Shown: positions 586 to 64,000 of the stretch, one piece after another | How the letters are laid out: every line of letters starts with the position of its first letter | How positions within the stretch are numbered: position 1 is the first letter of the stretch | Assembly (NCBI GenBank): GCA_965178125.1 | Contig: OZ237772.1 | Span: 496,001 to 560,000, forward strand | Source: Bilabrum cf. latius | Taxonomy: Eukaryota | DNA: 64,000 nucleotides | Direction: 5' to 3' | Notes under the pieces: model-generated | The model's database searches: none | Seen by the model: the letters and a program-made list of their open reading frames with translations, nothing else | Told to the model about the DNA's origin: nothing | Position numbers and translations under genes: made by a program

Positions 586-3417
586 TCAGAACGGCCTCGC
601 CCCTCTCTTGCCCTTGCCCCCGCGCTTGCCCTTGCCCTTGGCACCGCCCCGGTACATCCCCACGCGATTCGCGCTCTGCCACTGCCTCCTCCCGCTGGCC
701 CCTGCCGCATCCGCAAGCCCTGCCCCCGCCCTCGCCTTGTCGCTCAGGCCCCCGTACCCGACGGCCGCCACTGCCTCATACTGCCGGCCCACCGCCCCGC
801 TTCCGCTCCCCGTCTGCGCCTCTGCCGCGGCCACCTGGCGAGCGTTGTTCGCGAACGACCGCAGCGGATCTGCACCGCCCATCCCCCCCCTGGCCCCCGC
901 CCCAGGGGCCATCTGCCTCCGCCTCTTGCGCTCCCGGCGACTGCCCCCCTGGTCCAGTCCGCCACCCGCCGCCTCCGCCGCGGCCTTGATCGAATCCGGA
1001 ATCAAATAGTCCGGCAGCTTGCCCAGGTGCGCCCGCACGGCAGCCCCCGCCCCCCTGGCTCCCTGCCTCAGTTTCTGCGCGAGGGCCTCCTTGTCCCTCG
1101 GGTTGGCCTCGAAGTGCGCCTGCAGCCTGGCCGAGTTGAGCATCTCCCTCCGGAGATCTTCCGCGCGGGCATGCCGCACCTTGGTCCTTGTTATGCTCTG
1201 CAGCACGTCGTCCACTCTGTACCTGAAGCCCTCCACCTCTCTCGCGTCGAAGGGCAGGGGCGCGGGCTGGGGCCCACCGTCCTCCCCCGGTGCCTGCGAG
1301 GCCCTCAGCTCCTCCAGCAGCGACTGCTCCGCCTTGTTCAGCGTTGTGACGAGTGAGACGGCGGCTCCGCTGGCTCCCCCGCGAGCCACCCTCCCGATCC
1401 TGTGCCTGTATGCCCGCGCGTCGGCCGGCATGTCCACGTTCACGACAGTGCCCACCCCCCTAAGGTCGATTCCACGGGCAATGCCGTATTCCGCGTCGGT
1501 GCCTGGACCCCTGCCCCCGCTGCTCTTGCCGTTGCCCCTGCTCCTGCTTGGCCCGAATCGCTCTTTCTTCTCCTCGTCCTCCTCTAACTCAGCGCGGGGC
1601 CTCTTGCGGCCAGCCGATGCCTTGGGAGCCCCGGACTTGCCGCCCCCCTCCCCCTCCCCCTCCCCCTCCTCATCGTCATCGTCATCCTCATCATCGTCGT
1701 CATCATCCTCCTCATCGTCATCGCCAGCATCCTCCTCATCGTCGTCTCCCTCGCTTCCACTCTGTTCCCCCCCATCGCCTTTCGCGCCGACAGCCTCCTC
1801 CTACTCCTCCTCTTCGTCGCTTTCACTTTCACCTTCACTTTCACTTTCGCTATCACTTTCACTTTCGCTATCACTTTCGCTGTCGCTGTCCTCCTCTGCC
1901 CCTCCCAGCGCCCCATCGGTGGCCACAAGGTAATCGAACATGCCCCGCTCAAACTCGCGGAGCACACGAAGCCTAGAGTTGGCAGGAAGTTCGCCGTGGA
2001 CAGCGGCGCACGGCACACCAAAGGCCTCCAGTAGCAGCCGCACCCTGTAGCACTCGTCAGTGTCTTTCACGAACAAAATCGCCCTCCCGCTGATGAGCCG
2101 CAGCTTGATCAGCGAGAACAGAAGCAGCGGCTTGTCCCCCGGCCGCACCTCGATCGCGTACTGCGCCAGCTTCCCGTCAGTGGGCGCGTCCTCCAGCCTC
2201 AGGACCGCGGGCGCAGTCAGCACGAGCTTCCTGAGAGCGTCCAGCTCCGTGGTCATTGTGGCAGACACGAGCATCCTCTGGCACCCCCGAGGGACCCACT
2301 CGGCCAGCCGAGCCATGGCCCCACCGTGCCCGAACGACAGGACCGCGTCAGCCTCGTCCACCACCAGCACCTGCAAGTGCCGCAGGCAACCGACCAGCGA
2401 AGCAGCGGCCTCTGCCCCGCTGGGCAAAGCCGCCGCCGCATCGGCTCTATCCTTCGCCTCCTGCTCAGCGTCCTCGTCGCCCGCCTTGAGCCGGGCCCTG
2501 AGGGCGGCCTTCTGCGCCCGCCTGGCCTCCTTGCCCTTGGCTGCGTCCAGCGCGCGCTTGCCCCGGTGAGTGAAGGCGTCGGGTCCCACCTGCAGCATCT
2601 TGCCCTTGGTCCTGCGCTGACGAGTGCGCTTGGCGTGCCTCTCGGCAGCCCGCACCAGCCGGCCCGGAGTGGCCACGATCACGTCGGGGCACTCGTCCAG
2701 CAGGTCCATCTCCTCGGATGGGGTCTGCGAGCCGTCCAGGGCCGCGATTCTGAGCACGTCCTGGCAGTAGTGCGCCAGTCGGGCGAGGGCCGCTCTGGTC
2801 TGGGCCACCAGCTCCCGTGTGGGGGCGAGGACGGCAGCGAGGATGCGGCGGGTGGGGGCGGCGCCCAATGTGCCGGCGCCGGAGGAGGAGGAGGAGGAGG
2901 AGGACGCAGCCGTACTGGAAGCCGCGGATGAAGAAGATGATGCCAGCTCGCCGCCGGCTCCTGCTGCGGCCGCTGCGTCTGCCTTTGCCTGCAATACCCG
3001 CTAGAGAAGGGGCAGCCCGAACGCTGCGGTTTTGCCGCTGCCTGTGCTCGCCCGTACCACTAGGTCACGCCCACTCAGTGCCAGCGGCACGGCCTACGCC
3101 TATACTAGAGTAGGATGAACCCACCCGATGAACGCCACTGCCTTGGTCAACCGTGAATCCAGTCCTGCAAGTGCGAAAAGCAGCGAGAGTTGCAGTTGGT
3201 GCTTTCAGCGATGAAACAATGCAGTACTTGCGATTGAGGCATTAAGGTGATGCGCATGATACAAATTTAAGAACAAAAGGGAAGATAAGAATGTGATCTC
3301 ACCAAGCTCGAGGGTAGCGAAGGTCTTCTCCTGGTCAAGCAATCGGGTGTTTACGGTCGTTCCCCGGGCAGCCGCATCGGTTGCGCCGACCTAATCTCCA
3401 GTTTTCACAAGGGACAT
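586..3417 (-). CDS. DDX56: DEAD-box RNA helicase, DDX56/Dbp9 family (2 exons: 3417-3303, 3164-586; TAG read as Gln)
   Basis: Q-motif [15 protein letters not shown], motif [52 protein letters not shown], and C-terminal [16 protein letters not shown]...LPDYLIP typical of Dbp9. In-frame TAG at 3391, 3100, 3094, 3001 and 1801. Intron 3165-3302 (GTGAG...TGCAG). Ends TGA at 586. Confidence 0.92.
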
Positions 3418-3584
3418 TGAAACGCAATTTCAGAGAATTAAGCTATTTTGCCGAGCCTCGAAAGAAACAGGCGCAAATAAGAGGTAACCGCGCAGCTGAA
3501 ACTGTGTTCGCTGCACTCGTCACATGCAAACAGCAACAGTCGAGCGAGCAAGACCTAATTGCCTGGCTCTACCCGCCTGGCTGA

Positions 3585-10604: not shown

Positions 10605-10826
10605 CCCTGCCTCACTGTGCACCCATGGCCCCCTTGCCCTGCTACCCCTCAGGGTCCCTACCCTGCCTCACTGTGCACCCATGGCCCCCTTGCCCTGCTA
10701 CCCCTCAGGGTCCCTACCCTGCCTCACTGTGCACCCATGGCCCCCTTGCCCTGCTACCCCTCAGGGTCCCTACCCTGCCTCACTGTGCACCCATGGCCCC
10801 CTTGCCCTGCTACCCCTCAGGGTCCC
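10605..10826. repeat. 56-bp tandem repeat x4 overlapping the last codons and stop of the RP2-like gene
   Basis: Unit CCCTGCCTCACTGTGCACCCATGGCCCCCTTGCCCTGCTACCCCTCAGGGTCCCTA starts at 10605, 10661, 10717 and 10773; no spacers. Confidence 0.95.
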
Positions 10827-13357
10827 AAGACCGGAACCACAGCCCCGCGATTCGCTCGGTTGCCTGTGTCCCATCCACCAAAACCCCAACCGCAGCCTCG
10901 TCCTCCCTCTCGCCCTCGTCCTTCTCGCCACCGTCTTCGTTATCCTCGTCCTCATCGCTTCTCTCCAATTCTGACGTGCACGCCCCTGCCCATCTCAGCC
11001 TTGATAGACCACTCCCCTCTCCCAGACCGGCCTAGATCTAGGACAGCCACACCGTAACATCCTCACTCGTCACAGTGGACTGCCCCTCCCGACTGGCAGC
11101 AAACACCAGCTCCACCCCGATGACCGTGCAGGGCCCATCCACTACTGCACGCAGCCGCCCCATCGCCCCTGCATTCTCCTCCCCGCCCGCCTCCCGCAAG
11201 ATGCCCCACTGGCTCATGGACAGTGGCAGTGCCCTAGTCCTGCCCAGCCGACACATGGGTCTACCCTCGCTTGCATTGTCTGCCCCGCTCCTGTCCACTT
11301 CGTCCTCATCCTCACCCCCGTCCCTGTCCCATTCCCTATCCACTCCGCCGCCACCAGCATCCGCTTCTCCACCGGCATTGCTTGCTTGCTCGAGCACAAG
11401 CCTGCACCCGGCCCCAACTCGATTACAGATCTCCGTAGCTGTTCGCTCCGCGGCCCATGCCTCCTAGCCTCCATCGGCCTCCCCCTCCATCCCGGCTCTA
11501 GACTGCTGCAAGGGTGGCCCGGGGCCCAGCAGCACAAGGAGACGGTGAAACTCGCGACTGGCAGCAATGTCGGATTTAGCCGGGGATGGCAGGGTGTAGG
11601 GGACTGCAGGCAGACCCTCTGAGCCGATCCCCTTCCGTACCGTGTCTGCGTGAGGACCTGCTCCAAGTGCTCCCTGTCCCGCTCTGGCAGGACCACCTGA
11701 ACCTGCTCCTGCCCCTGCACCCGCGTTACCGCTCGCACACGCACCAGCACACGCCCCCGCACAAACGCCTGCATGCAAACCTGCAACTGCGTTTGCACCT
11801 GCCCCTACTCCTGCATTCCCGCTCGCATATGCACCAGCACACGCCCCCGCACACACATTTGTGCGCGCAACTGCGCCGGCATCAAGCCGGTCCCCTGCAG
11901 CCTTGGCAGCCGCATCATCATCATCACCTATTAGCTTCTCACTCGTCACACATCCCCACCCCCAGAAGAGAGCTAGATCACAAGGCACAGCAGGAGGGTG
12001 CTCCGAGTCCCCTGCTCCTCCTGCCTTCGCCGCTGTACCTGCTCTCGCAGTGTCACCAGCCGAAGCGGGGCTGCCGGCAGCACTGCCGGCAGCACCACCA
12101 CCTGCTTGCCGCACCTCTGCAGCTCGCGATGCTCCGCTCTCATGTGTACTATCTCTTTCCTCTTGTTCCCTGGCTTTCAGCTCCCTCTTCCTCCTCAGAG
12201 CCTCGTAGAAGCCTCCCTTCTTCTCTTGCCCACGCCCCTACCCATGCCCCTGTCCTTTACCTTGAGTCTTTCCGCGGCCGTCCTACAAATTCCTCCCTCC
12301 CCTCACTTTGTCTGGCACTTTCACACCTCTAATTTCACCCCTTTCCCCACCACCAGCCTCCTCTGTGCCCCCAACCGGCAAGGCCTACGGGCCCCCCGCC
12401 TGCACCTACCCGCATCTAACCCTCACATCTTTCGCCTCCATCACCTTCCAGTGCCACTTGCCGCGGCCCGGGCTTGCGTCTTCCCAGCCCAGGGACCGAC
12501 CGTGCCCCTTCACACCAGCATGCGATGCACTCGGCTCGCTGAAGTCGTGCACCTCGGACCAGCGGTTGTTGAAGGGGTGCAGCCCGGCAGCCTGAAGCAG
12601 CTCCCCGTGGCTCCTCTGTGGCACAGGGGGGTGATCGCCGGGTGCGCCAGGGTTATCACCTCGAACAGCAGTATCTGGCAATGCTCCATCATCCTGGCCG
12701 CCCGTGGTGCCCCCTGCATCTTCGGTCCGAGTCGCGGCGGGAGGAGGAGGACCCGGCAGCATGGCCCGAGGGAGGGCAGCGGCCCAGCACGCCACCCTGA
12801 CTCTCCGGGAGCCCTCCAGGATGGGGCGGCTAGCGGTGCACAGAAATAAATCGCAGTCGAAGATAGCCCTGGTGCGGAGTTGCTGCCCGCAGAAAAACAC
12901 GGAGCAGTTGCGGCAGGAGCGCAGGAAGAGAGAGGTGCGGCAGGCAGCCACCAGGATGGTGCAGTTTTCGCATCGGTCTACGGTGACTTGCTCGGTAGCT
13001 CCAAGGACAAGAATTGTGCTATTCGTGCACTCTGCCAATTTGAACGGAAGTCCGGACACCTGGCTGCGTATGGCTGGAATAATAGGAATTCACTGGGAGT
13101 ATAACAGGTGCACTTCGTAGCTTTATGACCCTTCATCCAGCATTGTCTCACAAATCAGATCGAACAACTAGCTCAGAATTTATGCCAGACACGCGATAGT
13201 CTGATGCAGGGTGCAGCTTCTCCATTGCAGCTTTGCGCTCCATCAGTTTCTGCATCCCTCCTTTCTCGATGGAAGCCATGGCAACAGAGCTATCTGCCCC
13301 ATCGATACTGGGTATTGTATGGACATGTTCTTCAACGTGCGAACTACCGCATCCCAT
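10780..13357 (-). CDS. RP2: RP2/XRP2-like TBCC-domain protein with long low-complexity insertions (2 exons: 13357-13152, 13063-10780)
   Basis: MGCGSS acylation motif. TBCC beta-helix FKLAECTNSTILVL...VTVDRCENCTI...SLFLRSCRNC...GQQLRTR...RPILEGS and AGLHPFNNRWSEVHDFS. Intron 13064-13151. ORFs 12406, 11464 and 11038 are in one frame joined by TAG. First TGA at 10780. Confidence 0.8.
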
Positions 13358-33320: not shown

Positions 33321-33457
33321 GCTGCCTTTCAGACAGAATCAGGTGAATCGGAGCCGGCCTTTCCGTTGCAACTTTTGGTTCGCTACGAACTTTCGCATGG
33401 CAAAAACTAAATCCCGCAGCAGGGACACGTCACACGATCGTTGACCGCTGCGCAAGC

Positions 33458-50686: not shown

Positions 50687-50951
50687 CGCGCCTCCAATCA
50701 ACGGAACTCGGCAAGACCGTTCTATGCCACAAGATATCTGTACGAAGTACAGTCCAATCCAAGTCTGGACTAATTCAAGTAGAATCCATGTAATTCAAGC
50801 GCATGTAATAAACGATCACACGAACCCGTGTGAAGCGCAAAGCCAAGCACCCACTCCACCGGTGCTTGCCGGCGCCGCGCATTGGCACAGTGCGGAACCA
50901 ATGCTTAGCACGCAGAAAACGCTGCTTGTGGGCACTTCGATCTCGAGTACT

Positions 50952-53900
50952 ATGCTGTTCTGGCCACTAATTGCGTGTATAGCAGTTGAGGCACTGCCGG
51001 GGGTACAGTGGAAGATTCTGAGCCCGAGCATAGCTGATCAGGACAGGTCCACGAATCATCCACATCCGCAAATACGCTACTCCCACGCATCTGAGGCGAT
51101 TGATATGGGAGAAGAAGGTGTTTCATTGCTAGTTTCGCTTGGTTATAACCATCACGGCAAACCCACCTGGTTTGGCGACTCCTGGATCACAGACCTCGAC
51201 GGTCAATCCAACGTGTAGAAAGGTTCGCAAGACGCCATTTCTACCCATGGAGACGTCTCGAGCACATTGTTCCCGGCAAATTGGCGCTAGATAGCATATG
51301 CCCCAGGTCAGCCCGCCCCGGTGGCAAGGTACGGACACGCCATGTTGCTGGCTGCACCGGATACGGTCCTAGTGTTTGGCGGCGACGACGGAGGCCATCT
51401 CAAGTCCCAGGGTTATCACTGGGGTTCTTACCGGCGCGATATGTGGTTATTATCCGCACAGCAGGGCGTCTGGTCTGAATTGAGGGCGCGCGCCAGTGAT
51501 GTATCCCCGGGCATGGGAGAGGCCTGGCCCCCTGCAGTGGCCCTGCACACCCTCACCGGGGTCTACGGCCTCGCTTCGGAGTGGGTGCGGTAGCAAGGGA
51601 AGGAGGGTCTTCTGCCGGCAGAGTGCGATGGTGCGTCACTTTCACAGTCCCGGAGTCAATCCGGCGACGATGCCGGTGGGGATGACACAGATGGAGAGGG
51701 CGAGGGCGAGGGGGAGGGGGGTGTGGGGGGCGCGCTGGGAAGCGGCAGATCCCGCGCTGCAGACTCTCCCCGGCTGCAGTTCGCACTTCTCTTCGGAGGC
51801 TTGGCGCGGTCGGACCACAGCCCCTCTGCCCCTCGCCCTGAGGGTCTGAGTCTGGGTCGTGGCCACAATGAGAAAGGCGATGGACACGGGCAAGGGGAGG
51901 GCGAGGGCTTGCGGGGGCACGCATCGTCCAGTTGGGACGGGCGGGGCTCCCACGCCGAGACGCTCGCCGAATTGTCGAGGGGAAAGCACTGGGAGAGAAT
52001 CGACGGAAAGGTGGTTGCCATTTCCACTGCCACTGAGTAGGAGAAGGGCGGGGATAGTGAGAGCCCTGCAGGAGTCATAGGGTCAAGCACAGCAGGGGCA
52101 GCAGAGACAAAGCAACAAGATGGGACTAACGGGAAAGGCACCAAGTTGGCCTAGGGCATTGAGTCAGTGAGCTCAGGCGAGAATGGTGCCTCTGTTCCGG
52201 CCGAGAGGGGAGAGACGTCCCCATCACCGACACCAGGCCCTTCTATGGACCTGGGTCTGGGCCTGGGTCTGAGCCCAGGCCTGGGCCTGGACACGGAAGG
52301 TATGTCTCGAGTGCTTGGGTGGCCAGACGAGGATACAGAGCCTCTGCCGGCAGGGAGGGGTGTCCTGCAGCGGACAGGGCATGCCTCCGAAGAATAGCGC
52401 CGCTCAACCACCCACTCTAAGCGCAGGCTTGCGAACGCCTCGAAGACCTCCCGGTCTTAGCGCCCATCATCTCGGTCTCAATCGCCCACGCATGACTCGG
52501 CTGACCTATGGGTCCTGGTAGCTCCGCTGGACGTCGGTGTGGGGGGTGCAGCAGCTTCAGAGCCGGCAGCAGGTGCGGGGGTGCAGCGCATGGGGGCCAG
52601 TGGGTGGCGGTGGTGGCATGCTGGTGGCATGCACGCCCCTCACAGCAGCGAAGATGGAGAGCTTCATGCCCACGCACACCCAAGTGATACCAGGCACCAT
52701 AGTGGTGCAGGAGGAGATCCCATCGCTCAGGTACCGTGCGCGCACGACGTGATGCTCCCAGCCGAGCAGGGCGCGATTGCATCTGCACCGGCAGTGCGCG
52801 GCACGTGGCAGTGGGACGACCGATTGGGTCCAAAGCCGGCAAGTGAGGCCGACATGCCCTGGCCGCAGCCTAGGCACGGGCATGCATCCGTGTTCGTACC
52901 AGACCCGGCCCGGCCCGGTGATGTGCAGGGGAGCGAGGTGGATGGCTCACAGGACGGGCCCGAGTGGCGGGAGGTGCAGCGCGGTGCTGGCAGGCTGTTC
53001 GTATTCGGGGGATCCTCCCAGCGGTGCGAGCCGCCGGGCGGTGCACAGCTGCCTGAGGGCATGCGGTTCAAGTACGGGGGCTTCCACGCCGCCACCAAGC
53101 CGCTCAAGGCAGTATCAGGGACAGCGCATGGATCTGCACACAGCCCGCCAGTGCCCCCCGCCCGGCCCTAGTCGTGCCTGCTGTCGGATCTCTGGGCCCT
53201 TGAGGTATCGTGGGAGAGGGAGCGTAGGCAGCCGAAGCGCCTGACCATGGTGAATGGGAGGGTGCCATCCCTGGCGGAGGCCTCCTATGGCACCCTGTCC
53301 GTTACACTCCACGGGTGGACGAGAGTGTAGGGTCCACCAGAGGCTGAAGGGGCGCGCCCCCCTGCGGCCCCCTTGCACTCCAGCGAGTTCGCTGCTGTAG
53401 AGGGACCCAGAGCCATCGGCAGCAGCCCGGGCTCGTCTGGCTTGTGGCCCAGCCCCAGGGCACACGCGACCATGGTGTGGCTTGCTGACTCGCTGCTGGT
53501 GTATGGAGGGGCGCGATGCTCACCGGGGTGCACCTGTCTGTGCGACGCGTGGCGAGTGCAGATCGTGGGGGCGGGCAAGAGCGGCGATGGCCAGCTCCGA
53601 GGGGAAGCGGGCGGCTCGCCTGCCCGCAGTAGCCCGATGGAGGCCCGGTGGCACTTTGCAGGGCCTGATGCAGCGGCTGCGGCCTGGGGCACGGCGGCTG
53701 GCGCTCGCACGCCCACCAACTTCCACTCGGTTTGCGGCCCAAACCAGCGGGGTACTCGGGACTAGGCTGCCAGCGGGGCGCTGGGTATCGGACTGGCACA
53801 GGTGGGCGACAAGTTCCGCGGCATGGAGATCCAGTCGTGGCACGGTGTGCCTGCGAGGAGGTACAGGCATTCCATGAGCGGGCGGGGGGCGACTCGCGCG

Positions 53901-54821
53901 GCCCTAATGCTGGCCTGCGGACTAGAGGCACATCATGGACAGGAAGAGGATGGAAGTGGGCACGCCCAAGGACACGGCTGGGCGAGCCTCAGCCCCGGTG
54001 TGTCTTCAGCTGACCGACTGCCCTCTGTGGATGCACTGGCCCGGGGCCCATCCAAGGCGGTTCTATTCGGTGGCGAGGCCTACGGGCCCTCTACGTACTA
54101 CTCTGACCTATGGGAGGTGCGTGCTGCAGAGGTACCCGCGGGTGGACTGATGGCGCGGGCGAGTGCCTCCCTGGCAGCAGCAGGAGACGCGCTGCTGGAC
54201 GTGCTCGGGATCCGGCCCAAGAAGAAGAGCAAGTAGATCCAGACTGCCAGTGGGGTGGCCCTGCCCCAAGGTGGGGAGGCTGGCCAAGGGAGTGCACGGG
54301 CTGGCGCTGGCGCAGAGAGCAGTAGTAAAGGAGGCACCGATGACAGACCAACCGGGGCAAGGACAGGGCGCGATGAGGCCGATGACAGACCAACCGGGGC
54401 AAGGACAGGGCGCGATGAGGCCAAGGCCAGGAACATCGCCTTGGACCGCGGCGCTGACATGCACTTCCTCGTGTGGCTCACCATGGCTGGGTGTGTCTGC
54501 TTTGGGGTCGTCGCGGTGGGCCTTCAGGGAGTTTTATGGTCGACTGGATCCACTGCCAGTGTATGTCCCTGCCAGCAGCGGGTAGGTGGTGGGCATAGGG
54601 TGGAGCATCGTGCTGGTAGTGCTGGGCCCTCAGGGCCACCGGCATTGAAGCGTCGGGGGACCAACGGAACGCACGGCGCTAGAGATCCCGTAAATGGAGA
54701 GTTAGACGTAGAGATCGGTACGACGAATGGCACGCATATGTATGAGCCAGTCCATGGCGGTGCTGCGAGTGTGGGAGAGGGAAAGATCCGGCGAAGAGGA
54801 GGTGATGCGCACGAGGATTGA
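50952..54821 (+). CDS. ~1289-aa Kelch-repeat type I membrane protein
   Basis: Eight track ORFs in one frame joined only by TAG. Signal peptide MLFWPLIACIAVEA; Kelch motifs ARYGHAM...LVFGGDDG...DMW, PRHGHASV...LFVFGG, PRAHATMV...LVYGG, VLFGGE...YSDLW; C-terminal TM FLVWLTMAGCVCFGVVAVGL; ends TGA. Confidence 0.82.
54337..54422 (+). repeat. 42-bp in-frame tandem duplication (DDRPTGARTGRDEA x2)
   Basis: Two identical copies read directly from the sequence. Confidence 0.92.
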
Positions 54822-54907: not shown

Positions 54908-57900
54908 ATGCGACTTCATTCCATAGCTCGCCGCATGCAGCCTCACTTTCCAAAACTGCCTTGGAGCCTGGCCAGATACAATGTGAACAACGCCGCCACG
55001 GTCTCGCTCCCACCTCGCCAGAGTAAGCTTGTAACGGCAAACCACTGAGGGTCCATCCCATGTGCATAAGTCAAGTTCTATCTATTTTGCCGTTTTGATC
55101 ACCCCGCAGGATCCCCAATGGCGTCGGCCTACGACCCTAGCACGGAGATGGAGTGGGATGCTTGGTGGTAGCAGCATTTGGTAGCTCCAGGTGCAGCAAA
55201 GCGCATGATTAGTGGTATAGGCGAATCAAATAATACATTTTCAATGCTGCTGCCCCCGCCAAACGTGACTGGGGCGCTCCATGTTGGCCATGCGCTTACA
55301 GTTACGCTACAGGACGCTCTTGCTCGCTGGCAACGCGCGAGAGGTAAGCGGGTAGTATGGGTGCCGGGCCTGGATCATGCGGGGATTGCCACACAAGCAG
55401 TGGTCGAGAGGGAGCTGCTTCGCACCCAAGGCCTCACTCGGCATGATCTAGGCAGAGAAGAGTTCGTGCGGCGCGTCCATGAATGGACCAGGGAGTATGG
55501 TGGGCGCATTCGGCAGCAGATCAGGCGCATGGGGGCAAGTCTCGACTGGAGAAGAGAATTCTTCACGCTAGATGAGTAGAGGAGCAAGGCAGTCCGCAGG
55601 GCTTTCGTCCGCATGGCGCGGTCTGGCCTGCTATACCGGTCCACTCGCAAGGTGCACTGGTGCCCGCACCTGCGCACTGCCCTCTCCGATGCAGAGGTAG
55701 AGCCCACTAGAGTCAAGAACCAGATCCTGCATCTGCCTGTGCCGGGTGGTAACGGTGCAAATGCTGCACATGGCAGTAACAGTGGCACGCGCCCAGTCCG
55801 ACTCGGACTACTGTACTCGATCGGATACCCCCTGGCCCCGGACGCCCTGGCTTTAGTCTAGGACCACCAGGGGTCTGCTGTGGCTGAGTATCACGCTTCC
55901 ATGCAGGACTGGGGCACGGCCTCGTCCCACGAAGAGGGTGCATCTGAGGGCTCAGATAAGCCAGAGACAGAGTCAGGGAGTGCCTTGACACCCAGCGTGC
56001 CTGTCCTCCTAGTGGAAACGACTCGCCCCGAGACGCTGCTGGGCGACGTGGCAGTTGCGGTGCACCCTGAAGATGGCAGGCTCGGTCCGATGGCAGCCGC
56101 GGGGTGCCATGTAGTGCAGCCCATGTCCCTTCCAGGAACAGAGGAGGGGGTACAGGCAGCCATGCAGGCGCTGCGGGAGGGGTTTGCTTCAGGTGGAGCG
56201 GAAGGCATGAAGCGAGCAGCTAATGCTGTGGGGATTCAGCTGGTGCCCATCGTGGCTGACCCAGTTCTAGTGGACCCTGAGCTCGGCACAGGCGCGGTGA
56301 AGGTGACCCCGCACCACGACCCCTCGGACAGGGAGTGCGCCGATCGGCTGGGACTTCCCCTGGGCTCTCCCGTGTACGGGCCGGACGGTGTGGTGCGAGG
56401 TCTGTTCCAAGGCAGCGCTGCTGGGGCCCAGCTGGCGGGGTAGGATCGGCTGGATGCAAGGCAAGGTATAGTGAGGGTATTGCAGGGGTAGGGATTGTAC
56501 TGCGGGGAACAGCCGTGGGAGATGAGCGTTCCTTTGTGCTCCAGAAGCGGGGACCTGATCGAGCCGATGTGGATGCCCCAGTGGCACGTGAGGTGCGGGC
56601 CCCTCGAGTAGGCACAAGAGCAAGGCGGACTCAGAGCAGGCCACGCACAGGTGAGCGAGTGCCCCGGTGCGACAGGTTTGATGCCCCTAGCGCGAGACAT
56701 GGTGAATTCGGGCGCAATAGACATGATGCCTGAGGATGGAGCGAAAGAATGGAACCGCTGGCTGGGAGCCAACCAGGACTGGTGCATCTCCAGGCAGCTG
56801 TGGTGGGGGCATCGTATTCCAGCTTGGGTAGTATGCGATGGTACAAGAGCTGCGCCCATATCATTTGGATGCGGGAGCAAGGCGAGCGGTGGCGAGGGTG
56901 TTGCCCTCAATTTGGATGATGCAGCTCGATAGGCGTGGGCCCGCCGAGGCGTGGTGCTGCAGGCGACAGGCGAGCCCGGCAACGAGATAGATACCACGTG
57001 GCACGCGTGGGTAGTGGCAGAAGATGCAGAGGAGGCACGCGGTCTGTGGGTGGCATTTTGCGAGGAGACATGCATAGGAAGCTCAGCAGGGTTTGGAAGC
57101 GCAGTCCTCGAGCAAGACGAAGACGTGCTGGACACGTGGTTTTCGTCAGGCCTGCTACCCCTGAGTGCTCTGGGATGGCCATGGGCCCCGGGTGAGGTAG
57201 CCGCTGTTGGTGAATCCCTGCATGCTGACTCACAGCTTCCAGGTGTATCCGTACAGGAGCACAAGCATCGAGTCAGGGGCATCGGCGGAGAGTGGGGCTA
57301 GCCGGAGTCCAGCCCTGGGCGAGGGCTAGACTTTCCGCTGGAGGAATTGCCCCCGAGTCACAGAGACATGTATCCGTTGAGCACCATGGAAACAGGGGCA
57401 GACATTCTGTTTTTCTGGGTTGCTCGCATGGCGATGATGTGCGCTTCGGCAGGACCAGATGGGCTCGGGCGGGCAGGAGACGGGGGCAATGCGGCCTCCA
57501 TGCTGCGTCCGTTCAACTAGGTCCTGCTGCATGGGATGGTGCGGGACGGAGAGGGTCGCAAGATGAGCAAGAGCAAGGGCAACGTGATCGACCCCATGCA
57601 CGTGATCCAGGGGCGGCCGCTGGAGGCTATGGTCGAGGACATCGAGCAGAACCACGTGCTGCCGGCCCGGGAGAAGAAGCGGGCCATCAAGGCAACTCGC
57701 AGGGACTTCAAGGATGGGCTCCCGCAGGCAGGCGCGGACGCACTTCGGTTTGCCATGTGCTACCATGCCTCATAGGCTGCTGGGATCAACATGGATGTGC
57801 GACGGGTGCATGAGTTCAGGCTATTCTGCAACAAGGCCTGGCAGTCAGTGCGATTCTCCTTGCAGCATATTGAGGCCGATGCTGCGGCCGTGGGTGCTGC

Positions 57901-59128
57901 GATGGGCGAGAGGCAAGGCCGTGTGGGATGCCTCCCGAGCGGGCTGGGGCTGCCGTCCTTGCCGTTGCCAGAGGCAGGCCCGCAAGCCCTGCCGCTGCCG
58001 AGCCGATGGGTTTTGAGCAGACTGGCGGCCTGCTGCGGGGACGTAGAGACGGGGTTAGAGACATTCAACATGAGCCGCAGCACGAAAGCCTTGCACCGAT
58101 GGTGGCAGCAAGATTTCTGCGACGTCTACCTTGAGTGGTCCAAGCCGGCTCTGTGGGCAGGCGGCCAGGATGCCCTGCTGCACCGAGGCACCCTGGCTGT
58201 TTGCGTGGATGCAGCTGCACGACTGCTGCAGCCCTTCATGCCACATTTAGCCGAGGAGTTCTACCAGCGGTTGCATCGGACAGGGCTTGATGGTGAAGGA
58301 GACACAGCGAAGGGAGCAGGTTGCAAGCTTGATCGGTCCCATAGCCCGGCGCCAAGCGTGGGTCTCGCTCCGTTCCCGACCTTATCCGGTACGTCTAGTT
58401 GCCTAGCCTAGGATGCTGAATGTGCACCATCCCATGGAATAGTTGAAAGGCCTATTTCCGAGTTCATGTCCGCACAGACCGAGAGCAGTTTTGGCTTCTT
58501 GCTCAATGTCGTGGCGGCCGCACGGGGCATGGCTGCAGTCCGCAGCCGCATCCTGGGCGCAGGGAGGACAGAGCCGTCTGCTAGACGATTCCTGCTTATG
58601 GCGGGGAGCCAAGAGCTCGTTGATCTGCTGGAAGAGCATCGATCCGAGCTGGAGTACCTGCTGCGATTGAGGGGGGACAGTGAGGAGGGCGGGGCTGTGC
58701 CCAAGCTGCTCGAGGTGCACCTCGCGGCTAGAGAGGAGGACGGGTCGATGGATAGGCCAGCGGGTCATATTGGTCGACTGGTGGAAGGGGGACAAGGAAT
58801 GTATGGGGGACAGCTTGCTGTGCTAGTGGCTGCCTCGCTCCCCTCTAGCTCCGACATGGGCTCTGATGGCGCGTCCAGTGCACGGGGGTTGCAGGCCGAG
58901 TCCCAGCGCCTGTACAAGAGCAGCGCCAAGCTCCTGAAGCAGATCGAGCAGATTCGCAAGAGGCAGCAGAGGGCCCAGTATCGCGACAAGACGCCCGTGC
59001 GTGTCCAGGAGAAGGACGCTCAGGCAGCTGAGGCCCTCGCGGAGCAGGCCAGCGAGCAGCAGGCACAGGCGGAGGAGCTGCTGGTCGTGGCCCGGGAGGT
59101 CGAGGTCGAAGGGGGCTCGCTGCGGTGA
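54908..59128 (+). CDS. valS: Valyl-tRNA synthetase, probably mitochondrial (exons 54908-55022, 55110-59128)
   Basis: [13 protein letters not shown] (HIGH), [103 protein letters not shown]. About 11 in-frame TAG. Presequence-like [11 protein letters not shown]. Intron 55023-55109. Ends TGA. Confidence 0.93.
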
Positions 59129-59543
59129 TTGCATCCAATTGAGTGACAATATGACAACATGGCAACAGTTTACGCAACGAAGATTAGCCTAGATCTATGC
59201 CGAATGGATCCGGAATCCAGATTCTAGAATTCATCCGATCCGTCAAGTCGAAAGCACACGTCGGATGTTGCGGTTTGTGGCAGCCTCTTTGCCCAGATGA
59301 TGCATGGATGCACAAGATCCAGGTGTGGACGCAAGTCTGGCTGGCAGATCCTACGTCGGGGCGCTCTGTGTATTTGTTGTGTCAAGTTTCGAGTAGGTCA
59401 AGCAACGAGCACCAAGCAAGCTCAGGTGAAAACCACGTGGCCAGACTCTCGCATGACAACTAGTGTATGGATACGCCCTGCTGCACGCCCAGCAAACTGC
59501 ACGTCCACTACTAATGCAGCGAAGCGATCGGCCAGCTTCGCAC

Positions 59544-61567
59544 TCAGAGCTCCGCGTGCTCCTGTAGGCGTGCATCGTGCTGCTAGATCCACTTGCGGAT
59601 GTACTCGAGCTCTTTCTCGCGGACCAGTTTGACCGAGGGCGTGTCAAGTGGGTTGGAGAAGAAGAGGTCCATGTGGTGTCCGCCCACCTGCAGAGGAGAG
59701 GGTACTGGGGCAGCGCGCACAGCATAGAGCATTGCGGCGCAAGGCAGTGGGGAGAGCGGTTGGCAACAACCCGACGATGCCGAAGCACGACTAAAGGCAA
59801 TCTCACCTGGATGTACGACACAAGGTCCCGGTCAAGGCTGATGTTGGCATGCGGGCCCCCGCCCCGCCATGGGTCGTAGGACCCCTGTGAGAAGAAGATG
59901 TTGGAGGCAGCCTGCAGGCGCCTGCCCCCGAAGCTGATCTGCGCCCAGTCCGATCTGGGAGTGACCCCCCACTGGTCCTGGCAGCCCTACGAGAAGGATG
60001 CAAAGTCCCATGGCACGGGCCAAAACATGTCCAGGGGTGGGCCGCTCTGGTTCTGCGGCATCACCATCTCCGTGCAGGCTAGGTAGTCCCACAGCAGCCC
60101 ATCCCGCTGAGTCTCCGGGTTGGGGGCTGCGTCCCAGTCATAGCACGACAGCGATCCGGTGTAGTTGAACCACGCACCCACGGCGTCCGCCAGGCGCTCC
60201 AGCGACTGACGCTGGTCCTTGGGGGCTGATCCATCGCCCACAGCACCCTGACACATGCCCTTGATGGGGAAGGCCGGCAGGATGCCCTGCAGGGTAGAAA
60301 GCGGAGGTGCGGTGCGATGAGAGGGTTGGTGATACTACGCGTGCGCGAGGAAACCAGCAAGCAGACGCAGAGCATCAAATCAAGCGATCTCACTTGGCCA
60401 TTCAGCATGTAGCTGCGATGAAAAACCAAAAGTCAAGGTGAAAGGATGCACAAATGTGGGCAACAGACACAGCAGCAGGGACGGTTCCACACTCCTAATG
60501 GATAGCCCAAGCCTCACCTGCTTGGGTAGGGGTAGCTGCCCATGGCTAGATAGGAGGGTGCGTTGGTGGCCCAGTAAGCCAGGCTAGTTGCATCTCCGGC
60601 GGTCTTGATGGGCTTGCACAGGCGCATGCCCTCGCTGACCTCCTGCCTGCCTGACTCGGTCTGGCCCAGGTCCAGGATGGCCTGAAAGCCTGCGTGCATG
60701 GCCCCTTTGCACCCAGGGACGAATGAGTCCGCCGTGTCGGTCACGATCCCGTTGTAGTAAGAGGGCTCCACGGCGGGGGTCTCGAAGGGGAAGGCCCAGA
60801 TGGGAGCTGAGCCAGCGATGGCGCCGTCGAATTGGGCTGGGTACTTGATGCGCGCCCATGAGGCCAGCATGCCACCATAGGAGCCTCCGAATGCAATTAC
60901 GGCGCTGTCGGGTGCATTCCAGTCTGCTTTCTTGTGCAGCAGCAGCCTGGCGTAGTCAGCGAGTGCCTGTTCGGCGCTCAAGTAGTTGGAGTGCTTGACC
61001 GAGTCCTACGGACTGAATGGGAGGCTCGCACCAAAGTACCGATGCTCGGCGAACACAAGAAGGGCGCCAAACTGTTCGGCATTCTCCCACATGAGACCAG
61101 TGTGGTTGAGACTGCGGAAAATGGCACAGCGGCAGGCGGTATTTATGGATGTACGTCGTGGCTGACTTGACAGCTGGTCAGTCAAAGCCGCCATAGAATA
61201 CTCACTAGAGGGTAACATCAGCCTCATTTCCGGTATAAAACCAGATAGGGCCTCCTTGTTTCTAGAATTGATCGCAAACGAAGACGCGCTGCTTGTACGT
61301 TGTCTACTTCGACCCGGCAGGAACATCAGTGGGCGCCTTCCAAGTGAAGTGGTCTAATGGCTACTCGAACCACTCGAGAGAGCAGTTCTGTGGGCCGACC
61401 GGCGTTGCAATCTTCCCAGTGCCGGCGATGTTTGGGAAAAACTCAGTCGATCTGCTCGGTACCTTTGGAGCTCGATGGCTCAACAGCGGGCGGCTACCAG
61501 TGGCCCATGCAGGTGATAATAGTACTGTAGCTGATGCTACGCTAAAAAAAGTTGAAAAGGTCCTCAT
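59544..61567 (-). CDS. PRCP: Lysosomal Pro-X carboxypeptidase / peptidase S28 family (5 exons: 61567-61206, 61111-60518, 60412-60394, 60286-59807, 59687-59544)
   Basis: Signal peptide; WFE*PLDHF; GPIWFYTGNE; AEHRYFG; catalytic GGSYGGML, YDPW and HHMDL; LACTEMVMP; four GT-AG introns restore the frame; ends TGA. Confidence 0.92.
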
Positions 61568-61701
61568 TTGGAAGGTTTGTGGTGCGAATCCTGGCTCGCT
61601 TTAGAAAGCGGAACCAAAGCGCGGCGCCGAAGCTACATAGATCCGGGATCCTTGGATGTCCCAAGTCTACTTCTAAGCTTAAAAAGAAAAAGTCAAAAGC
61701 C

Positions 61702-64000
61702 TTAATCTGCCTGATCATCCTATCCAACTCCGCTGTACAGGTATGCCAGCACTGACCGCGGCACTACCACACTCCCAACAGTACCGGCGTGCAGCCACTC
61801 CGGCAGCAGAGCATCGGGCAGGCGGTGGCACCCGAACCTCGCATACCACTCCCTCGCGTACAGGACCAGCAGCAGCCCCGTGCCCACGATGAGCATCATC
61901 CACACAAAGGTCGAGCTGGTGCCCCTGGCAGTCTTGAGCTGCGCGAAGAACACGCCGGGTCCCCCGAACATGAGGAACAGAATCGGGTAGAAGCACCCCA
62001 TGGCGAACGTCACGATCCACTCGTGCAGCAGATTGGAGATCAAAAAGGTCAGCATCAGCGCGTCAAACCGCGAGAGACCGTCTCCGCCGTGGCGGGCGGC
62101 TGTAGCACCTGCCTTGGGCTAGACTGCTGCCGTGTCCGCCTCCTCCTCCGCCCCGCCTGCGCCCGTGCCACTGCCTCTTACCTGCCGCTTGCCTGCTCTT
62201 TTACCTTTACCTTTGCCCTTTGCCCCCCCACCAGCGCCTCCCTCTTGTGCTATCTCAGCCAGGCCGCCAATGTCTGCCCCCTCGTTCGCTTCGACTTCTC
62301 CGCTCGCCCCTGTGATGGCCCGCCGCCCAGCCTCCGATGTGAACCGCATCAGGTCGAAGTAAATGTACGTGCGAATGTGCTGGCCCACCACCACATTCCA
62401 GAGGCGATAGAACTGTCCAAAAGATGCGGCATTCCACCAGTCCTGCGAACAAGGAAGGACGGGAGCAGAGGCAGGCACGCACACATGCAAGTTGCCGCAA
62501 TGCGGTCCATCCATGTCACACACAAACGGGCGGAAGGCCCCAATAACACAGCCCGCAGGCAGACACTCACACTCGCAAACTGTCCTCGATCTCCGAACCG
62601 CAGCAGCTCGGCCCACATGTTGAGCCACGAGTGCAGCACTCCGTAGAACATGAGCACCAGCAGTAGGGAAGCGGGCAGCATAGAGTGGAAGACGCTGAGC
62701 ACGAACGCCTGCAGATCTCCCGGATACAAAGCAGTGTGCTTGAACTGCGGAGCCACCGCCACCACGAAGAGAAGGTACACGAACCCGACCACCAGTAGGA
62801 AATTGAGGCCGTGCTTTCCCGCCTCGACCCATCTCACGTCGGGTGCCAAGCCGGGGTATCTGTCTCTGTACACGAGCGTGGGCGCGAAGGAGAAATACAT
62901 GTACCTGCCAATTTCTCGTTGCACGTCCCCCACATCGATGCGGGGCACCAGCACGTGCTCTTCCGTGACCCCTTTCTTCCGGGCCCAGCCAGGGATGTAC
63001 CGGGCCAGCGCGCTGTCGCCGTACAGCCCGTACAGCATCTTCTCCCTGAAGTACGCGTGCGCCTTCATCAGAAAACGGGCCATCTCGGCCTGCAAAATCA
63101 CCGCGCTAGGGGGTGGCAGCGGGCTGTCTGCCACGGCCAGGAAGTACAAGCAGACAGCGGTGGGCACCAACACCTGCAGGCCCTGCCCGATGCAGTAGAG
63201 CGGGAGCCACACATGCCAGCTCCAACTGAACCTCCGGACGCCCTGCACCAGCAGGATAGGGAAGAAAGATAGCACAAACTGCGCTACCCAGCAAGGCGCC
63301 ACGACTCCGACGTGTCCGAAGCCCCACACGAGCAGCCCAATGTCCGGTGTCAGGTCCGGCTCCACTGGCACCGCGGTCAGCTGAGAGGCCACCTGGCTCC
63401 ACTGCAGCGCAGGCGCAAGCTGTGCCCCGCCCTCATTCTCCGTGGCATTCAGCCCGTGGGTGGATGCATGCGCCGCCCAAGCCCTCCCCGAGCCCCCGCA
63501 GGCCCAGCCCTGGTCCGATTCCCCCGGCCTCTCCGCCTGCCGCTGCAGCTGAAAGGCCGCCTGCACCACCATGTTGATGCCCAGCCACGCCATGCCTGCC
63601 ACCGCCATGCTGTAGATCGTGCGGTAGTCCCGCCGCCCCTCCAGCATGGTGGTCAGCAGCGAGGCCCGGGGCCGGAAGGCAGGCTGCGACCATGCTCTCC
63701 TCAGCCGGGCCTGTCTGGCCGCTTCCTGCTGGGTCTCGGACAGCTGACTGCCCGAGGCCCGGGGCTCTCTCCTCTCCATGCCCGCATCGTCCTCGCCCAT
63801 GCCCTCCGCGCGGTCCAGCTGCGTCTCTAGCGAGGCTCCCAGGTCGCGCACTGCCTCCGCATGCCTGGCCAGGTCTCCGTGCAGCGATGTGCGCAGGGCC
63901 AGGAGCTCGTCTCGGAGAGAGTCCACGGCGCGCAGGTGAGCATGCACGCCCTAGCGATCCAGAAGGACTCGGGAATCTTCTGCCGTGGTCGCGGAGTTTG
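61702..64000 (-). CDS. SOAT1: Sterol O-acyltransferase (SOAT/ACAT, MBOAT family), 5' end outside the window; intron 62443-62570
   Basis: FRPRASLLT, EMARFLMKAHAY, YFSFAPTLVYRDRYP, HSWLNMWAELLRFGDR...DWWN, FYRLWNVVV, SNLLHEW (catalytic His), LYAREWYAR. TAG at 63951, 62119 and 61720; first non-TAG stop is TAA at 61702. Confidence 0.9.

What the first reader, a model, noticed from the sequence alone, without database searches (positions are those of the whole stretch)
586..64000. Non-standard nuclear genetic code: UAG encodes glutamine throughout the window
Seen: nearly every gene is broken in the ORF track only by in-frame TAG (about 110 by hand count) and resumes in the same frame. I found no internal in-frame TAA or TGA and no frameshifts. 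Affected genes include core housekeeping ones (ValRS, AsnRS, Rpn10, DDX56). Established: several of the TAG positions correspond to conserved Gln residues in these families. Most nuclear stop-to-Gln codes reassign UAA and UAG together (table 6). UAG-only Gln (table 15-like) is rare in nuclear genomes; one precedent I recall is the fornicate Iotanema spirale. Inference: this organism reads UAG as Gln, which implies a tRNA-Gln(CUA) and an eRF1 that no longer terminates at UAG. It may be an undescribed independent reassignment in this lineage.
Basis: partly seen in the sequence, partly recalled or inferred. Interest (0 to 1): 0.97.

Follow-up and report, generated by a model that had tools for sequence, protein, structure and literature searches.

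The report
UAG read as glutamine, stramenopile nucleus
This GC-rich protist genome, related to the flagellate Cafeteria, translates the stop codon UAG as glutamine and ends nearly all its genes with UGA, a rare genetic-code change that appears not to have been reported for this major group of eukaryotes.

Summary
In 21 frames read from the first ATG (16,245 codons) there are 95 in-frame TAG, 0 TAA and 0 internal TGA; off-frame rates predict 103, 34 and 262. Homology runs straight across TAG in ValRS, AsnRS, a DDX56-like helicase and a xylulokinase. Three TAG columns are near-invariant Gln in homologues (119/119, 118/118, 107/118). On 11 well-aligned columns, Q has log-odds +13.5 and the next residue, K, −3.8; TAG columns look like the window's own CAG/CAA columns. 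Spliced transcript contigs from two studies carry the TAGs unchanged, which excludes assembly error and editing. Of 23 gene ends, 22 are TGA. One is TAA, with a TGA two codons later. TAA is therefore not a sense codon, and the code is table-15-like, not table 6. The nearest named relative is Cafeteria roenbergensis, whose nuclear genome was annotated with the standard code. Nine literature searches found no nuclear UAG reassignment in a stramenopile. tRNA-Gln(CUA) and eRF1 could not be examined: no whole genome is held.

The parts
586..3204 (-). DDX56/DBP9-like DEAD-box helicase frame with 4 in-frame TAG. The TAG at 3100-3102 is the invariant Gln of the Q-motif (PTLV#); further TAGs at 3094-3096 and 3001-3003. 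Ends in TGA.
   Evidence: Pfam DEAD 6.6e-30 and Helicase_C 2.5e-18; best relative Cafeteria, 1e-142; column Q 119/119; coordinates checked
23736..25751 (+). FGGY xylulokinase with 3 in-frame TAG. The TAG at 24402-24404 sits in 'RFTGN#V'. Ends in TGA.
   Evidence: Pfam FGGY_C 3.3e-18; column Q 118/118; public 416-aa gene call P0241 stops right before the TAG at codon 651
44869..47094 (+). Last exon of AsnRS (GST_C + OB fold + class II core) with 2 in-frame TAG (45826, 46132). TGA falls exactly at the conserved C-terminus. Upstream introns at 44558-44702 and 44742-44867.
   Evidence: PDB 6pqh_A 3.1e-136, aligned to the last residue of both; TAG column 422 has Q 54/137 as top residue; three RNA runs cover it with 0 differences and GT..AG joints
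55118..59128 (+). ValRS, 1336 codons, 11 in-frame TAG (for example 57773-57775 in 'CYHAS#AAG'). Ends in TGA.
   Evidence: Pfam tRNA-synt_1 1.5e-109; PDB 1gax_A 8.2e-114 with alignment blocks across the X positions; column 886 Q 107/118; transcript contig 55110-59199 with 0 differences
59373..61550 (-). S28 serine carboxypeptidase, 5 exons. The spliced frame has 526 codons and 6 in-frame TAG, and ends in TGA. Introns at 59685-59803, 60286-60392, 60413-60517 and 61112-61205.
   Evidence: Pfam Peptidase_S28 1.3e-38; CT..AC joints in X5, X6 and X7 but not in X1; spliced frame count
61643..64000 (-). SOAT/DGAT-like MBOAT gene, open at the window end, intron 62442-62569. The spliced frame has 722 codons and 3 in-frame TAG, and is terminated by TAA at 61702-61704. 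An in-frame TGA follows at 61693-61695.
   Evidence: Joint in X5, X6 and X7; spliced frame; PDB SOAT2 7n6q_A 4.7e-16, aligned to chain residue 515 of 530; sequence read
35654..39544 (+). HSF-type transcription factor frame with 15 in-frame TAG (14 after the first ATG), several in Q-rich or (GQ)n context. Ends in TGA.
   Evidence: Pfam HSF_DNA-bind 7.7e-16; contexts such as 'gqgqg#kqg' and 'aqy#h#hqqh'
10780..13089 (-). TBCC-domain frame with 8 in-frame TAG, one of them 10 codons before the TGA.
   Evidence: Pfam TBCC 4.4e-27
47462..50794 (-). Multi-pass membrane protein frame with 8 in-frame TAG, three of them in the last 10 codons (S##A#GAEAV then TGA).
   Evidence: three of its TAGs lie inside an X5 RNA piece
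50724..54821 (+). Kelch-repeat membrane protein with 11 in-frame TAG. Ends in TGA.
   Evidence: Pfam Kelch families, 1.5e-6 to 2.3e-9, below the curated cut-offs for the two beta-propeller models; 8 of 11 TAGs lie inside listed RNA pieces
29529..33338 (-). LRR protein frame with 11 in-frame TAG. Ends in TGA.
   Evidence: Pfam LRR_4 1e-9
27567..28790 (-). Xylose-isomerase-like exon. It has the highest GC3 (0.88) and 0 TAG among 18 Gln codons, illustrating that TAG is avoided in strongly biased genes.
   Evidence: Pfam AP_endonuc_2, weak, 9.4e-4, below cut-off

Best explanation
The window is nuclear DNA of a GC-rich (63%), intron-poor stramenopile related to, but distinct from, Cafeteria. In this organism UAG is an ordinary minor glutamine codon, about 12.5% of Gln codons. 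Termination uses UGA almost exclusively, and UAA is kept out of coding frames and probably survives as a rare stop. Shown: TAG is translated, it stands where homologues have Gln, it is in the mRNA, and TAA/TGA are excluded from frames. Inferred from established knowledge of other UAG-reassigned eukaryotes (recalled, not tested here): a tRNA-Gln with anticodon CUA, or an equivalent suppressor, decodes UAG, and eRF1 has lost efficient UAG recognition while keeping UGA. New TAG codons most likely arise from CAG by C-to-T transition and are tolerated as synonymous. That fits their higher share in weakly biased genes and their presence even at invariant catalytic Gln positions.
For: (1) Translated, not a break: PDB and Pfam alignments continue in the same frame across TAG in ValRS (1gax_A, 8.2e-114), AsnRS (6pqh_A, 3.1e-136), the DEAD-box helicase and the FGGY kinase. 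(2) Identity Gln: TAG columns are Q in 119/119 (DEAD-box Q-motif), 118/118 (FGGY), 107/118 (ValRS) and 54/137 (AsnRS, top residue) homologues. On 11 columns with at least 80% occupancy, mean Q frequency is 0.333 at TAG, 0.284 at CAG (n=63), 0.250 at CAA (n=10) and at most 0.104 at any other codon. Log-odds are Q +13.5 and K -3.8. The same test recovers the right residue in 186-200 of 200 subsamples for 8 control codons. (3) Many TAGs sit in (GQ)n or Q-rich repeats. (4) RNA: runs X5 and X6 (one study) and X7 (another) carry GT..AG-bounded skips that DNA run X1 lacks, and no differing letter was listed over 44500-64000. 24 of 32 in-frame TAGs of four genes lie inside the listed RNA pieces, 9 of them in two or more runs; all 11 ValRS TAGs lie in one contig. 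(5) Frames: 95 TAG, 0 TAA and 0 TGA in 16,245 codons, against 103, 34 and 262 expected. (6) Termination: 22 of 23 gene ends are TGA. The AsnRS TGA coincides with the homologue's last residue. One end is TAA. (7) TAG share of Gln codons falls with GC3 (rho -0.58, p 0.005). (8) A public 416-aa gene call ends right before a TAG, so that standard-code gene call truncated the gene at TAG.
Against: Only 12 TAG columns in 4 genes could be scored. At 8 of them Q is not the commonest residue (for example M/L at ValRS 442, K at ValRS 458), as also happens for true CAG columns (Q is top in 17 of 63). 5 of the 11 ValRS TAGs and many others lie in lineage-specific insertions or low-complexity sequence, where identity cannot be tested. 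No tRNA of any kind was found in the window, and no genome is held, so the decoding machinery is unseen. No peptide evidence exists. The tool itself marks X5-X7 as RNA only by guess (X5 as 'probably DNA'); my call that they are transcript-derived rests on the spliced joints. TAGs are somewhat enriched in the last 10 codons: 5 in 3 of 23 genes against 1.35 expected, Poisson p 0.012, but per-gene p 0.14. The single TAA end is followed by a TGA two codons later, so it cannot prove that TAA terminates.
Confidence: 0.92

Rival explanations
1. Table-6-like code: both UAG and UAA encode Gln, and UAA is merely rare because of GC pressure.
For: Only 1 of 23 gene ends uses TAA, and that TAA is followed by an in-frame TGA two codons later, so reading TAA as sense there would add only 3 residues. 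UAA and UAG are usually reassigned together (PMC11687900 Discussion passage).
Against: 0 in-frame TAA in 16,245 codons, where 18.6 are expected if TAA:CAA followed TAG:CAG. No TGA-delimited frame shows coding-like segments on both sides of a TAA, apart from antisense or overlapping spurious frames. TAA clusters in non-genic, AT-richer DNA (129 in 9,789 non-genic bases counted on both strands). The sequence turns T-rich immediately after the MBOAT TAA.
Confidence: 0.04
2. Context-dependent UAG: sense inside genes but still a terminator near the 3' end of some mRNAs, as reported for Condylostoma-type codes (recalled from memory, not read here).
For: 5 TAGs fall within the last 10 codons of 3 of 23 genes (TBCC, the membrane protein with three, and the MBOAT-like gene), against 1.35 expected; Poisson p 0.012.
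Against: Per gene the excess is not significant (3 of 23, p 0.14). Three of the five TAGs are in one Q-rich tail. In the four genes with homologue-defined C-terminal regions (ValRS, AsnRS, DDX56-like, FGGY), homology continues past the last TAG and none ends at TAG.
Confidence: 0.06
3. Artefact or non-functional DNA: assembly or sequencing error, RNA editing of UAG to CAG, pseudogenes, or TAGs hidden in short introns.
For: None beyond the a-priori rarity of code changes.
Against: No differing letter was listed between the window and contigs of four runs from three studies. The spliced transcript contigs keep the TAGs and do not skip them. Essential genes are affected (ValRS, AsnRS). TAG sits on invariant catalytic Gln columns. 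TAA and TGA are fully excluded from the same frames.
Confidence: 0.01
4. UAG is decoded as an amino acid other than Gln (Glu, Lys, Leu, Tyr or Ser, as reported in other lineages).
For: At some columns E or K is the commonest residue in homologues (ValRS 18: E 61 against Q 25; ValRS 458: K 53).
Against: Pooled log-odds are Q +13.5, K -3.8 and E -5.7. Three columns are near-invariant Q.
Confidence: 0.01

Closest known systems
Iotanema spirale (Fornicata) nuclear code: UAG = Gln, UAA and UGA stops (PMC5304391, abstract read)
   Same: UAG alone is reassigned to Gln, and UAA is not a Gln codon.
   Different: Unrelated supergroup (Metamonada against Stramenopiles). UAA is the primary terminator in Iotanema (abstract), whereas here UGA closes 22 of 23 genes and the genome is 63% GC.
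Protocruzia tuzeti and two phyllopharyngean ciliate lineages: UAG (not UAA) = Gln (PMC11687900, Discussion passage read)
   Same: Same codon and same amino acid, arisen independently several times.
   Different: Ciliates (Alveolata), the group known for frequent code changes. The present organism groups with Cafeteria and the oomycetes on ValRS.
NCBI translation table 15 (TAG = Gln; table name and content recalled, and mentioned as 'genetic code 15' for phages in the abstract of PMC9523058 seen in the listing)
   Same: The codon table that fits this window: TAG = Q, with TAA and TGA not sense.
   Different: Table 15 is a formal table; here it would apply to a stramenopile nuclear genome.
Table 6 type codes (UAR = Gln) of many ciliates, ulvophycean green algae, Hexamita, Streblomastix and Amoeboaphelidium (list from PMC11687900 Discussion passage)
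   Same: UAG = Gln, with UGA as the main or only terminator.
   Different: Here TAA is absent from 16,245 coding codons (about 19 expected if it were Gln) and apparently closes one gene.
Cafeteria roenbergensis nuclear genome (PMC6972860, passages read)
   Same: Nearest named relative by ValRS and DDX56. GC-rich (about 70%), with few introns (1.67-1.89 per gene).
   Different: Only a non-standard mitochondrial code is mentioned, and its ValRS and DDX56 are full-length NCBI proteins. Only 41-54% identical to the window's proteins.

Membership tests
UAG-only-to-Gln nuclear code (table-15-like) | In-frame UAG is translated inside bona fide protein-coding genes | tested here: met
   Homology continues across TAG in ValRS, AsnRS, the DEAD-box helicase and FGGY. 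95 TAG in 16,245 codons.
UAG-only-to-Gln nuclear code (table-15-like) | UAG corresponds to glutamine | tested here: met
   Q 119/119, 118/118, 107/118 and 54/137 at four columns. Pooled log-odds Q +13.5 against K -3.8, with controls. No peptide evidence.
UAG-only-to-Gln nuclear code (table-15-like) | UAG is present in mature mRNA (no editing, no assembly error) | tested here: met
   Spliced contigs of X5, X6 and X7 with no differing letter listed. 24 of 32 TAGs lie in listed RNA pieces. The runs are contigs, not raw reads, and their RNA label is a guess backed by the splice joints.
UAG-only-to-Gln nuclear code (table-15-like) | UAA is not a sense codon | tested here: met
   0 in-frame TAA against 18.6 expected if Gln. 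No coding continuation across TAA.
UAG-only-to-Gln nuclear code (table-15-like) | UAA still functions as a terminator | tested here: inconclusive
   1 of 23 gene ends is TAA (MBOAT-like, 61702-61704), but an in-frame TGA follows two codons later.
UAG-only-to-Gln nuclear code (table-15-like) | A cognate tRNA-Gln(CUA), or another UAG decoder, is encoded in the genome | not testable with these tools
   0 tRNA genes in the window by ARAGORN and 0 Rfam hits. No whole genome is held.
UAG-only-to-Gln nuclear code (table-15-like) | eRF1 N-domain altered so that UAG is no longer recognised | not testable with these tools
   eRF1 is not in the window, and no genome is held.
Table 6 (UAA and UAG = Gln) | UAA is used as a Gln codon inside genes | tested here: not met
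   0 of 16,245 codons.
Stramenopiles, near Bicosoecida | Conserved proteins group with stramenopile sequences | tested here: met
   ValRS ML tree: the window groups with Cafeteria and unnamed environmental sequences (93/97), and this clade is sister to oomycetes (91/90), on a long branch of 1.36. The best DDX56 hit is Cafeteria, 1e-142. Two genes only, and no rRNA in the window.

The most novel reading that the evidence does not exclude
This is the first nuclear genetic-code change in stramenopiles, and it is caught in an unusual state. UAG is fully captured as Gln. UGA is effectively the sole working terminator. UAA is a nearly abandoned codon that is neither sense nor a regular stop. That would be an intermediate between the standard code and the UAR = Gln codes, reached in a GC-rich genome rather than in the usual AT-rich ones.
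Probability: 0.25. Interest if true: 0.85.

Novelty: new member of a known kind. Interest (0 to 1): 0.72.

Why it matters
Nuclear code changes that separate UAG from UAA are few: Iotanema, Protocruzia, two phyllopharyngean ciliate lineages, a rhizarian (Leu) and Scotinosphaera (Ser), per the PMC11687900 Discussion passage. My searches found none reported for stramenopiles. A further independent origin in a GC-rich, UGA-terminating genome adds a contrasting case for models of how stop codons are captured, and for how eRF1 can distinguish UAG from UAA and UGA. There is also a practical consequence. Standard-code gene calling truncates or splits most genes of this organism: a public 416-aa gene call ends at a TAG, and no full-length ValRS or DDX56 from it turned up in the protein collection. 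Proteomes, phylogenomic matrices and metagenomic bins containing it will be wrong unless a TAG = Gln table is used.

Tried and rejected
(1) Whole genome: none is held, so no search for tRNA-Gln(CUA) or eRF1 and no genome-wide stop-codon tally was possible.

(3) tRNA and ncRNA in the window: 0 by ARAGORN and 0 Rfam families at gathering threshold.

(4) ORF-length comparison of single-stop read-through is not discriminating. TGA-sense gives 30 ORFs of 500 codons or more, TAG-sense 22, TAA-sense 5 and the standard code 5, because TGA is the commonest stop triplet in GC-rich DNA. I dropped it as evidence.

(5) Distant PDB homologues alone showed K, N, G or T opposite the TAGs, which says nothing about residue identity. 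Larger homologue sets were needed.

(6) The metagenome scan for DNA of a close relative, to look for TAG/CAG interchange, returned 80 loci, all at most 57% identical and mostly shown only for the core domain. No close relative was found, and the loci were not used.

(7) P0363, a 97%-identical 266-aa fragment of the AsnRS N-terminal part, shows that a close relative or allele exists. It does not reach a TAG site and its DNA could not be fetched.

(8) The paralogue pair 3585-4487(-) and 9584-10360(+) is only 35% identical and uninformative at its TAG sites.

(9) Sequencing runs: no listed holder is on record as RNA; RNA status was inferred from the splice joints. Parts of the membrane-protein and Kelch genes were not inside the listed RNA pieces (8 of 32 TAGs). 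Table 8 was cut (324 pieces not shown), so this means nothing.

(10) Pfam failed through my own frame slip on the first MBOAT exon. It was not repeated because the PDB match was enough.

(11) Literature: 9 searches found no nuclear UAG reassignment in stramenopiles. The library lacks most subscription journals, and supplements were not opened.

Full report
WHAT IS THERE

The window is 63% GC (59.8-67.8% per 4 kb) and is tiled by long frames on both strands. Under the standard code the longest ORF is 823 aa. With TAG read through, frames of 1,835, 1,365, 1,336, 1,295, 1,263 and 1,226 aa appear. Pfam identifies a eukaryotic nuclear gene set:
- a DEAD-box helicase
- a TSP1-domain protein
- TBCC
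- an FGGY kinase
- LRR and FG-GAP proteins
- an HSF-type factor
- AsnRS with a GST_C domain
- a Kelch protein
- ValRS
- an S28 peptidase
- a rhomboid
- an Rpn10-like UIM protein (weak match)
- a B12D protein
- a peptidase A4
- a xylose-isomerase-like exon (weak match)

CHECKING THE OBSERVATION

Counted from the first ATG, 21 frames hold 16,245 codons:

| Codon | In-frame count | Expected from off-frame rate |
|---|---|---|
| TAG | 95 | 103 |
| TAA | 0 | 34 |
| TGA (internal) | 0 | 262 |

TAG is therefore as common in frame as out of frame, while the other two stops are completely excluded. The frames were picked for lacking TAA/TGA, so this count is partly circular. A crude ORF-length control also fails to discriminate, because reading TGA as sense lengthens ORFs in GC-rich DNA too. 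The independent evidence is as follows.

- Homology. PDB alignments of ValRS (1gax_A, 8.2e-114) and AsnRS (6pqh_A, 3.1e-136) run in one frame across positions translated as X, inside high-confidence blocks.
- Termination point. The AsnRS alignment ends at the last residue of both proteins, directly before the TGA.

IS IT IN THE RNA?

Seven runs from three studies hold at least half of the sampled words of the ValRS stretch. I laid four of them on 44500-64000.

- X1 gives long unspliced contigs and no GT..AG joints, so it is DNA.
- X5 and X6 (one study) and X7 (another) share contigs with GT..AG- or CT..AC-bounded skips: two in AsnRS, four in the S28 peptidase and one in the MBOAT-like gene. 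They therefore hold spliced transcripts.
- The tool labels their RNA status a guess, and labels X5 'probably DNA'.
- No differing letter and no indel was listed.
- One X5 contig (55110-59199) spans the whole ValRS with all 11 TAGs.
- 24 of the 32 in-frame TAGs of AsnRS, the membrane protein, the Kelch protein and ValRS lie inside the listed RNA pieces, 9 of them in two or more runs. The piece table was cut, so the other 8 are simply unknown.

This excludes assembly error, TAG-to-CAG editing and hidden mini-introns. These are contigs, so rare variants would be missed.

WHICH AMINO ACID?

I translated TAG as X to avoid bias and aligned each gene with its homologues.

- ValRS, 120 homologues. 6 of 11 TAGs fall in aligned columns; 4 of the other 5 lie in insertions with no aligned residue and one in a column with only 5 of 120. 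One column is Q in 107 of 118. Others are mixed: E 61/Q 25; K 32/Q 30; K 54/T 20/R 11/Q 10; M 70/L 35/Q 4; and K 53/M 27 with Q not among the top six.
- DEAD-box helicase, 120 homologues. The TAG at 3100-3102 is the Q-motif glutamine, Q in 119 of 119 (motif name recalled). A second column is R/A/K with Q 4. A third is E 94/Q 12 over all DEAD-box hits, but Q 9 of 17 among the 18 closest DDX56-type hits.
- FGGY kinase, 119 homologues, with the self-fragment P0241 left out. One column is Q in 118 of 118. One is A/E/K. One is poorly occupied (37 of 119).
- AsnRS, 149 representatives, with P0363 left out. One column has Q 54 of 137 as the top residue. One lies in an insertion (4 of 149 occupied).

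A calibrated test used the 11 TAG columns with at least 80% occupancy in the first three genes:

| Codon in the window | Mean Q frequency in homologue columns | Columns |
|---|---|---|
| TAG | 0.333 | 11 |
| CAG | 0.284 | 63 |
| CAA | 0.250 | 10 |
| any other codon | at most 0.104 | - |

Pooled log-odds are Q +13.5, K -3.8 and E -5.7. The same procedure, run on random sets of 11 columns, recovers the correct residue in 186-200 of 200 trials for eight control codons. Q reaches a frequency of 0.5 or more in 3 of 11 TAG columns and in 14 of 63 CAG columns. TAG is therefore used at functionally critical Gln positions as freely as CAG, which argues for accurate decoding rather than leaky suppression (inference). 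Many further TAGs lie in (GQ)n or Q-rich repeats, such as 'gqgqg#kqg', 'tqg#g#gee' and 'aqy#h#hqqh'.

UAA AND TERMINATION

No TAA occurs in 16,245 coding codons. If TAA were Gln in the ratio TAG:CAG, 18.6 would be expected. All TGA-delimited frames of 300 codons or more that contain a TAA were inspected. None has coding-like segments on both sides, other than antisense or overlapping spurious frames.

Gene ends:
- The 21 frames end in TGA.
- The spliced S28 peptidase has 526 codons and 6 TAG, and ends in TGA.
- The MBOAT-like gene, spliced as in the RNA contigs, has 722 codons and 3 TAG, and ends in TAA at 61702-61704.

That last exon aligns to sterol O-acyltransferases up to residue 515-521 of 530. 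The sequence turns T-rich directly after the TAA, and the X7 contig ends about 60 nt further on. An in-frame TGA follows two codons later, so this single case is suggestive only. My earlier tally of '24 of 24 TGA' counted exon-internal frames for the two spliced genes. The corrected tally is 22 TGA and 1 TAA in 23 genes. The code is thus table-15-like and not table 6, with UGA as by far the main terminator.

A LOOSE END

Five TAGs lie in the last 10 codons of three genes: TBCC (1), the membrane protein (3) and the MBOAT-like gene (1). The expectation is 1.35 (Poisson p 0.012; per gene p 0.14). This may be chance in Q-rich tails. It also leaves a small opening for position-dependent termination at UAG.

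CODON-USAGE PATTERN

TAG makes up 12.5% of Gln codons. Its share falls as GC3 rises (Spearman rho -0.58, p 0.005). It is 0 of 18 and 0 of 11 in the two most biased frames, and 16-27% in ValRS, HSF, TBCC, the Kelch protein and the LRR protein. This is what a minor synonymous codon fed by CAG-to-TAG transitions would show (inference).

WHO IS IT?

- The best ValRS hit is Cafeteria roenbergensis (41% identity, 3.7e-194), followed by oomycetes.
- The best DDX56 hit is again Cafeteria (1e-142).
- In an ML tree of 38 ValRS sequences, the window groups with Cafeteria and unnamed environmental sequences (support 93/97). This clade is sister to the oomycetes (91/90). The window's branch is long, at 1.36.

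This is a single-gene placement of a divergent sequence, and there is no rRNA gene in the window. The Cafeteria genome paper mentions a non-standard code only for the mitochondrion (passages read), and its ValRS and DDX56 are full-length NCBI proteins. At the TAG columns Cafeteria has Q at 4 of 11 aligned sites. The change therefore arose after the split from the Cafeteria lineage (inference).

WHAT IS KNOWN

- PMC5304391 (abstract read) established UAG = Gln with UAA retained in Iotanema, and UAG = Leu in a rhizarian.
- The Discussion of PMC11687900 (passages read) adds Protocruzia tuzeti and two phyllopharyngean lineages for UAG-only Gln, and Scotinosphaera for UAG = Ser. It lists the UAR = Gln lineages and names no stramenopile.
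- Nine full-text searches combined UAG, glutamine, genetic code and reassignment with stramenopile, heterokont, bicosoecid and similar names, including searches limited to 2024 onwards and 2025 onwards. None returned a stramenopile nuclear case.
- The library lacks most subscription journals, and supplements were closed, so a description elsewhere cannot be excluded. The runs holding this DNA date from 2025.
- In the protein collections no full-length ValRS or DDX56 of this organism turned up. The one identical hit is a 416-aa FGGY fragment ending right before a TAG. That gene call was evidently made with the standard code.

MECHANISM

Shown: UAG is in the mRNA, is translated, and stands for Gln; UAA and UGA are excluded from frames; UGA terminates.

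Inferred from what is known of other reassigned lineages (recalled): a tRNA-Gln(CUA), and an eRF1 that no longer recognises UAG efficiently. Neither could be looked for, because the window has no tRNA gene and no genome is held.

VERDICT

The finding is real, well supported within one 64-kb window, and correctly interpreted. It is a known kind of code (UAG-only Gln) in a lineage where it seems not to have been reported. It carries the unusual combination of a GC-rich genome and near-exclusive UGA termination.

Noticed in passing
window 23736-25751 (+) and 27567-28790 (-): A xylulokinase lies 1.8 kb from a xylose-isomerase-like exon (weak Pfam match). Named xylulokinase hits are few and mostly bacterial (Lentisphaerota, Kiritimatiellia, Verrucomicrobiota), alongside some eukaryotes such as Klebsormidium. 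This may be a xylose-utilisation gene pair in a heterotrophic protist, perhaps acquired from bacteria.
   Followed up: no
window 44869-47094 (+): The AsnRS is of the bacterial type (best PDB match 6pqh_A; metagenome relatives 44-57% identical). It carries an N-terminal GST_C domain and two short 5' introns. P0363 is a 97%-identical 266-aa fragment of its N-terminal part, so a close relative or allele exists in public data.
   Followed up: partly
window 41170-43326 (-): The frame contains a run of about 50 perfect Ala-Pro dipeptides, plus GQ/GE repeats. Low-complexity GE, GQ, AP and poly-S/poly-Q tracts are common in most proteins of the window.
   Followed up: no
window 3585-4487 (-) and 9584-10360 (+): Two paralogous secreted-looking proteins without any Pfam family, 35% identical over 200 aa and sharing the motif 'EDLGPIVM...TPFG.F.GWENVT'.
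   Followed up: partly
window 14463-19970 (+): An 1,835-aa protein with no Pfam match. It has an N-terminal signal-like segment, many N-x-S/T sites, a long S/T/P-rich stalk and a C-terminal membrane anchor, so it is mucin-like. GC3 is 0.81, with only 3 TAG in 81 Gln codons.
   Followed up: no
sequencing runs X1-X7: The same stretch, with no differing letter listed for the four runs laid (X1, X5, X6, X7), is held by runs filed under three different coded organism labels in three studies. Small shares appear in runs labelled protist and algae metagenome. The organism may travel as a co-cultured or contaminating flagellate. Not pursued.
   Followed up: no
window 47462-47490 (-), 10780-10812 (-), 61702-61722 (-): TAG codons cluster in the last 10 codons of three genes: 5 against 1.35 expected.
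   Followed up: partly
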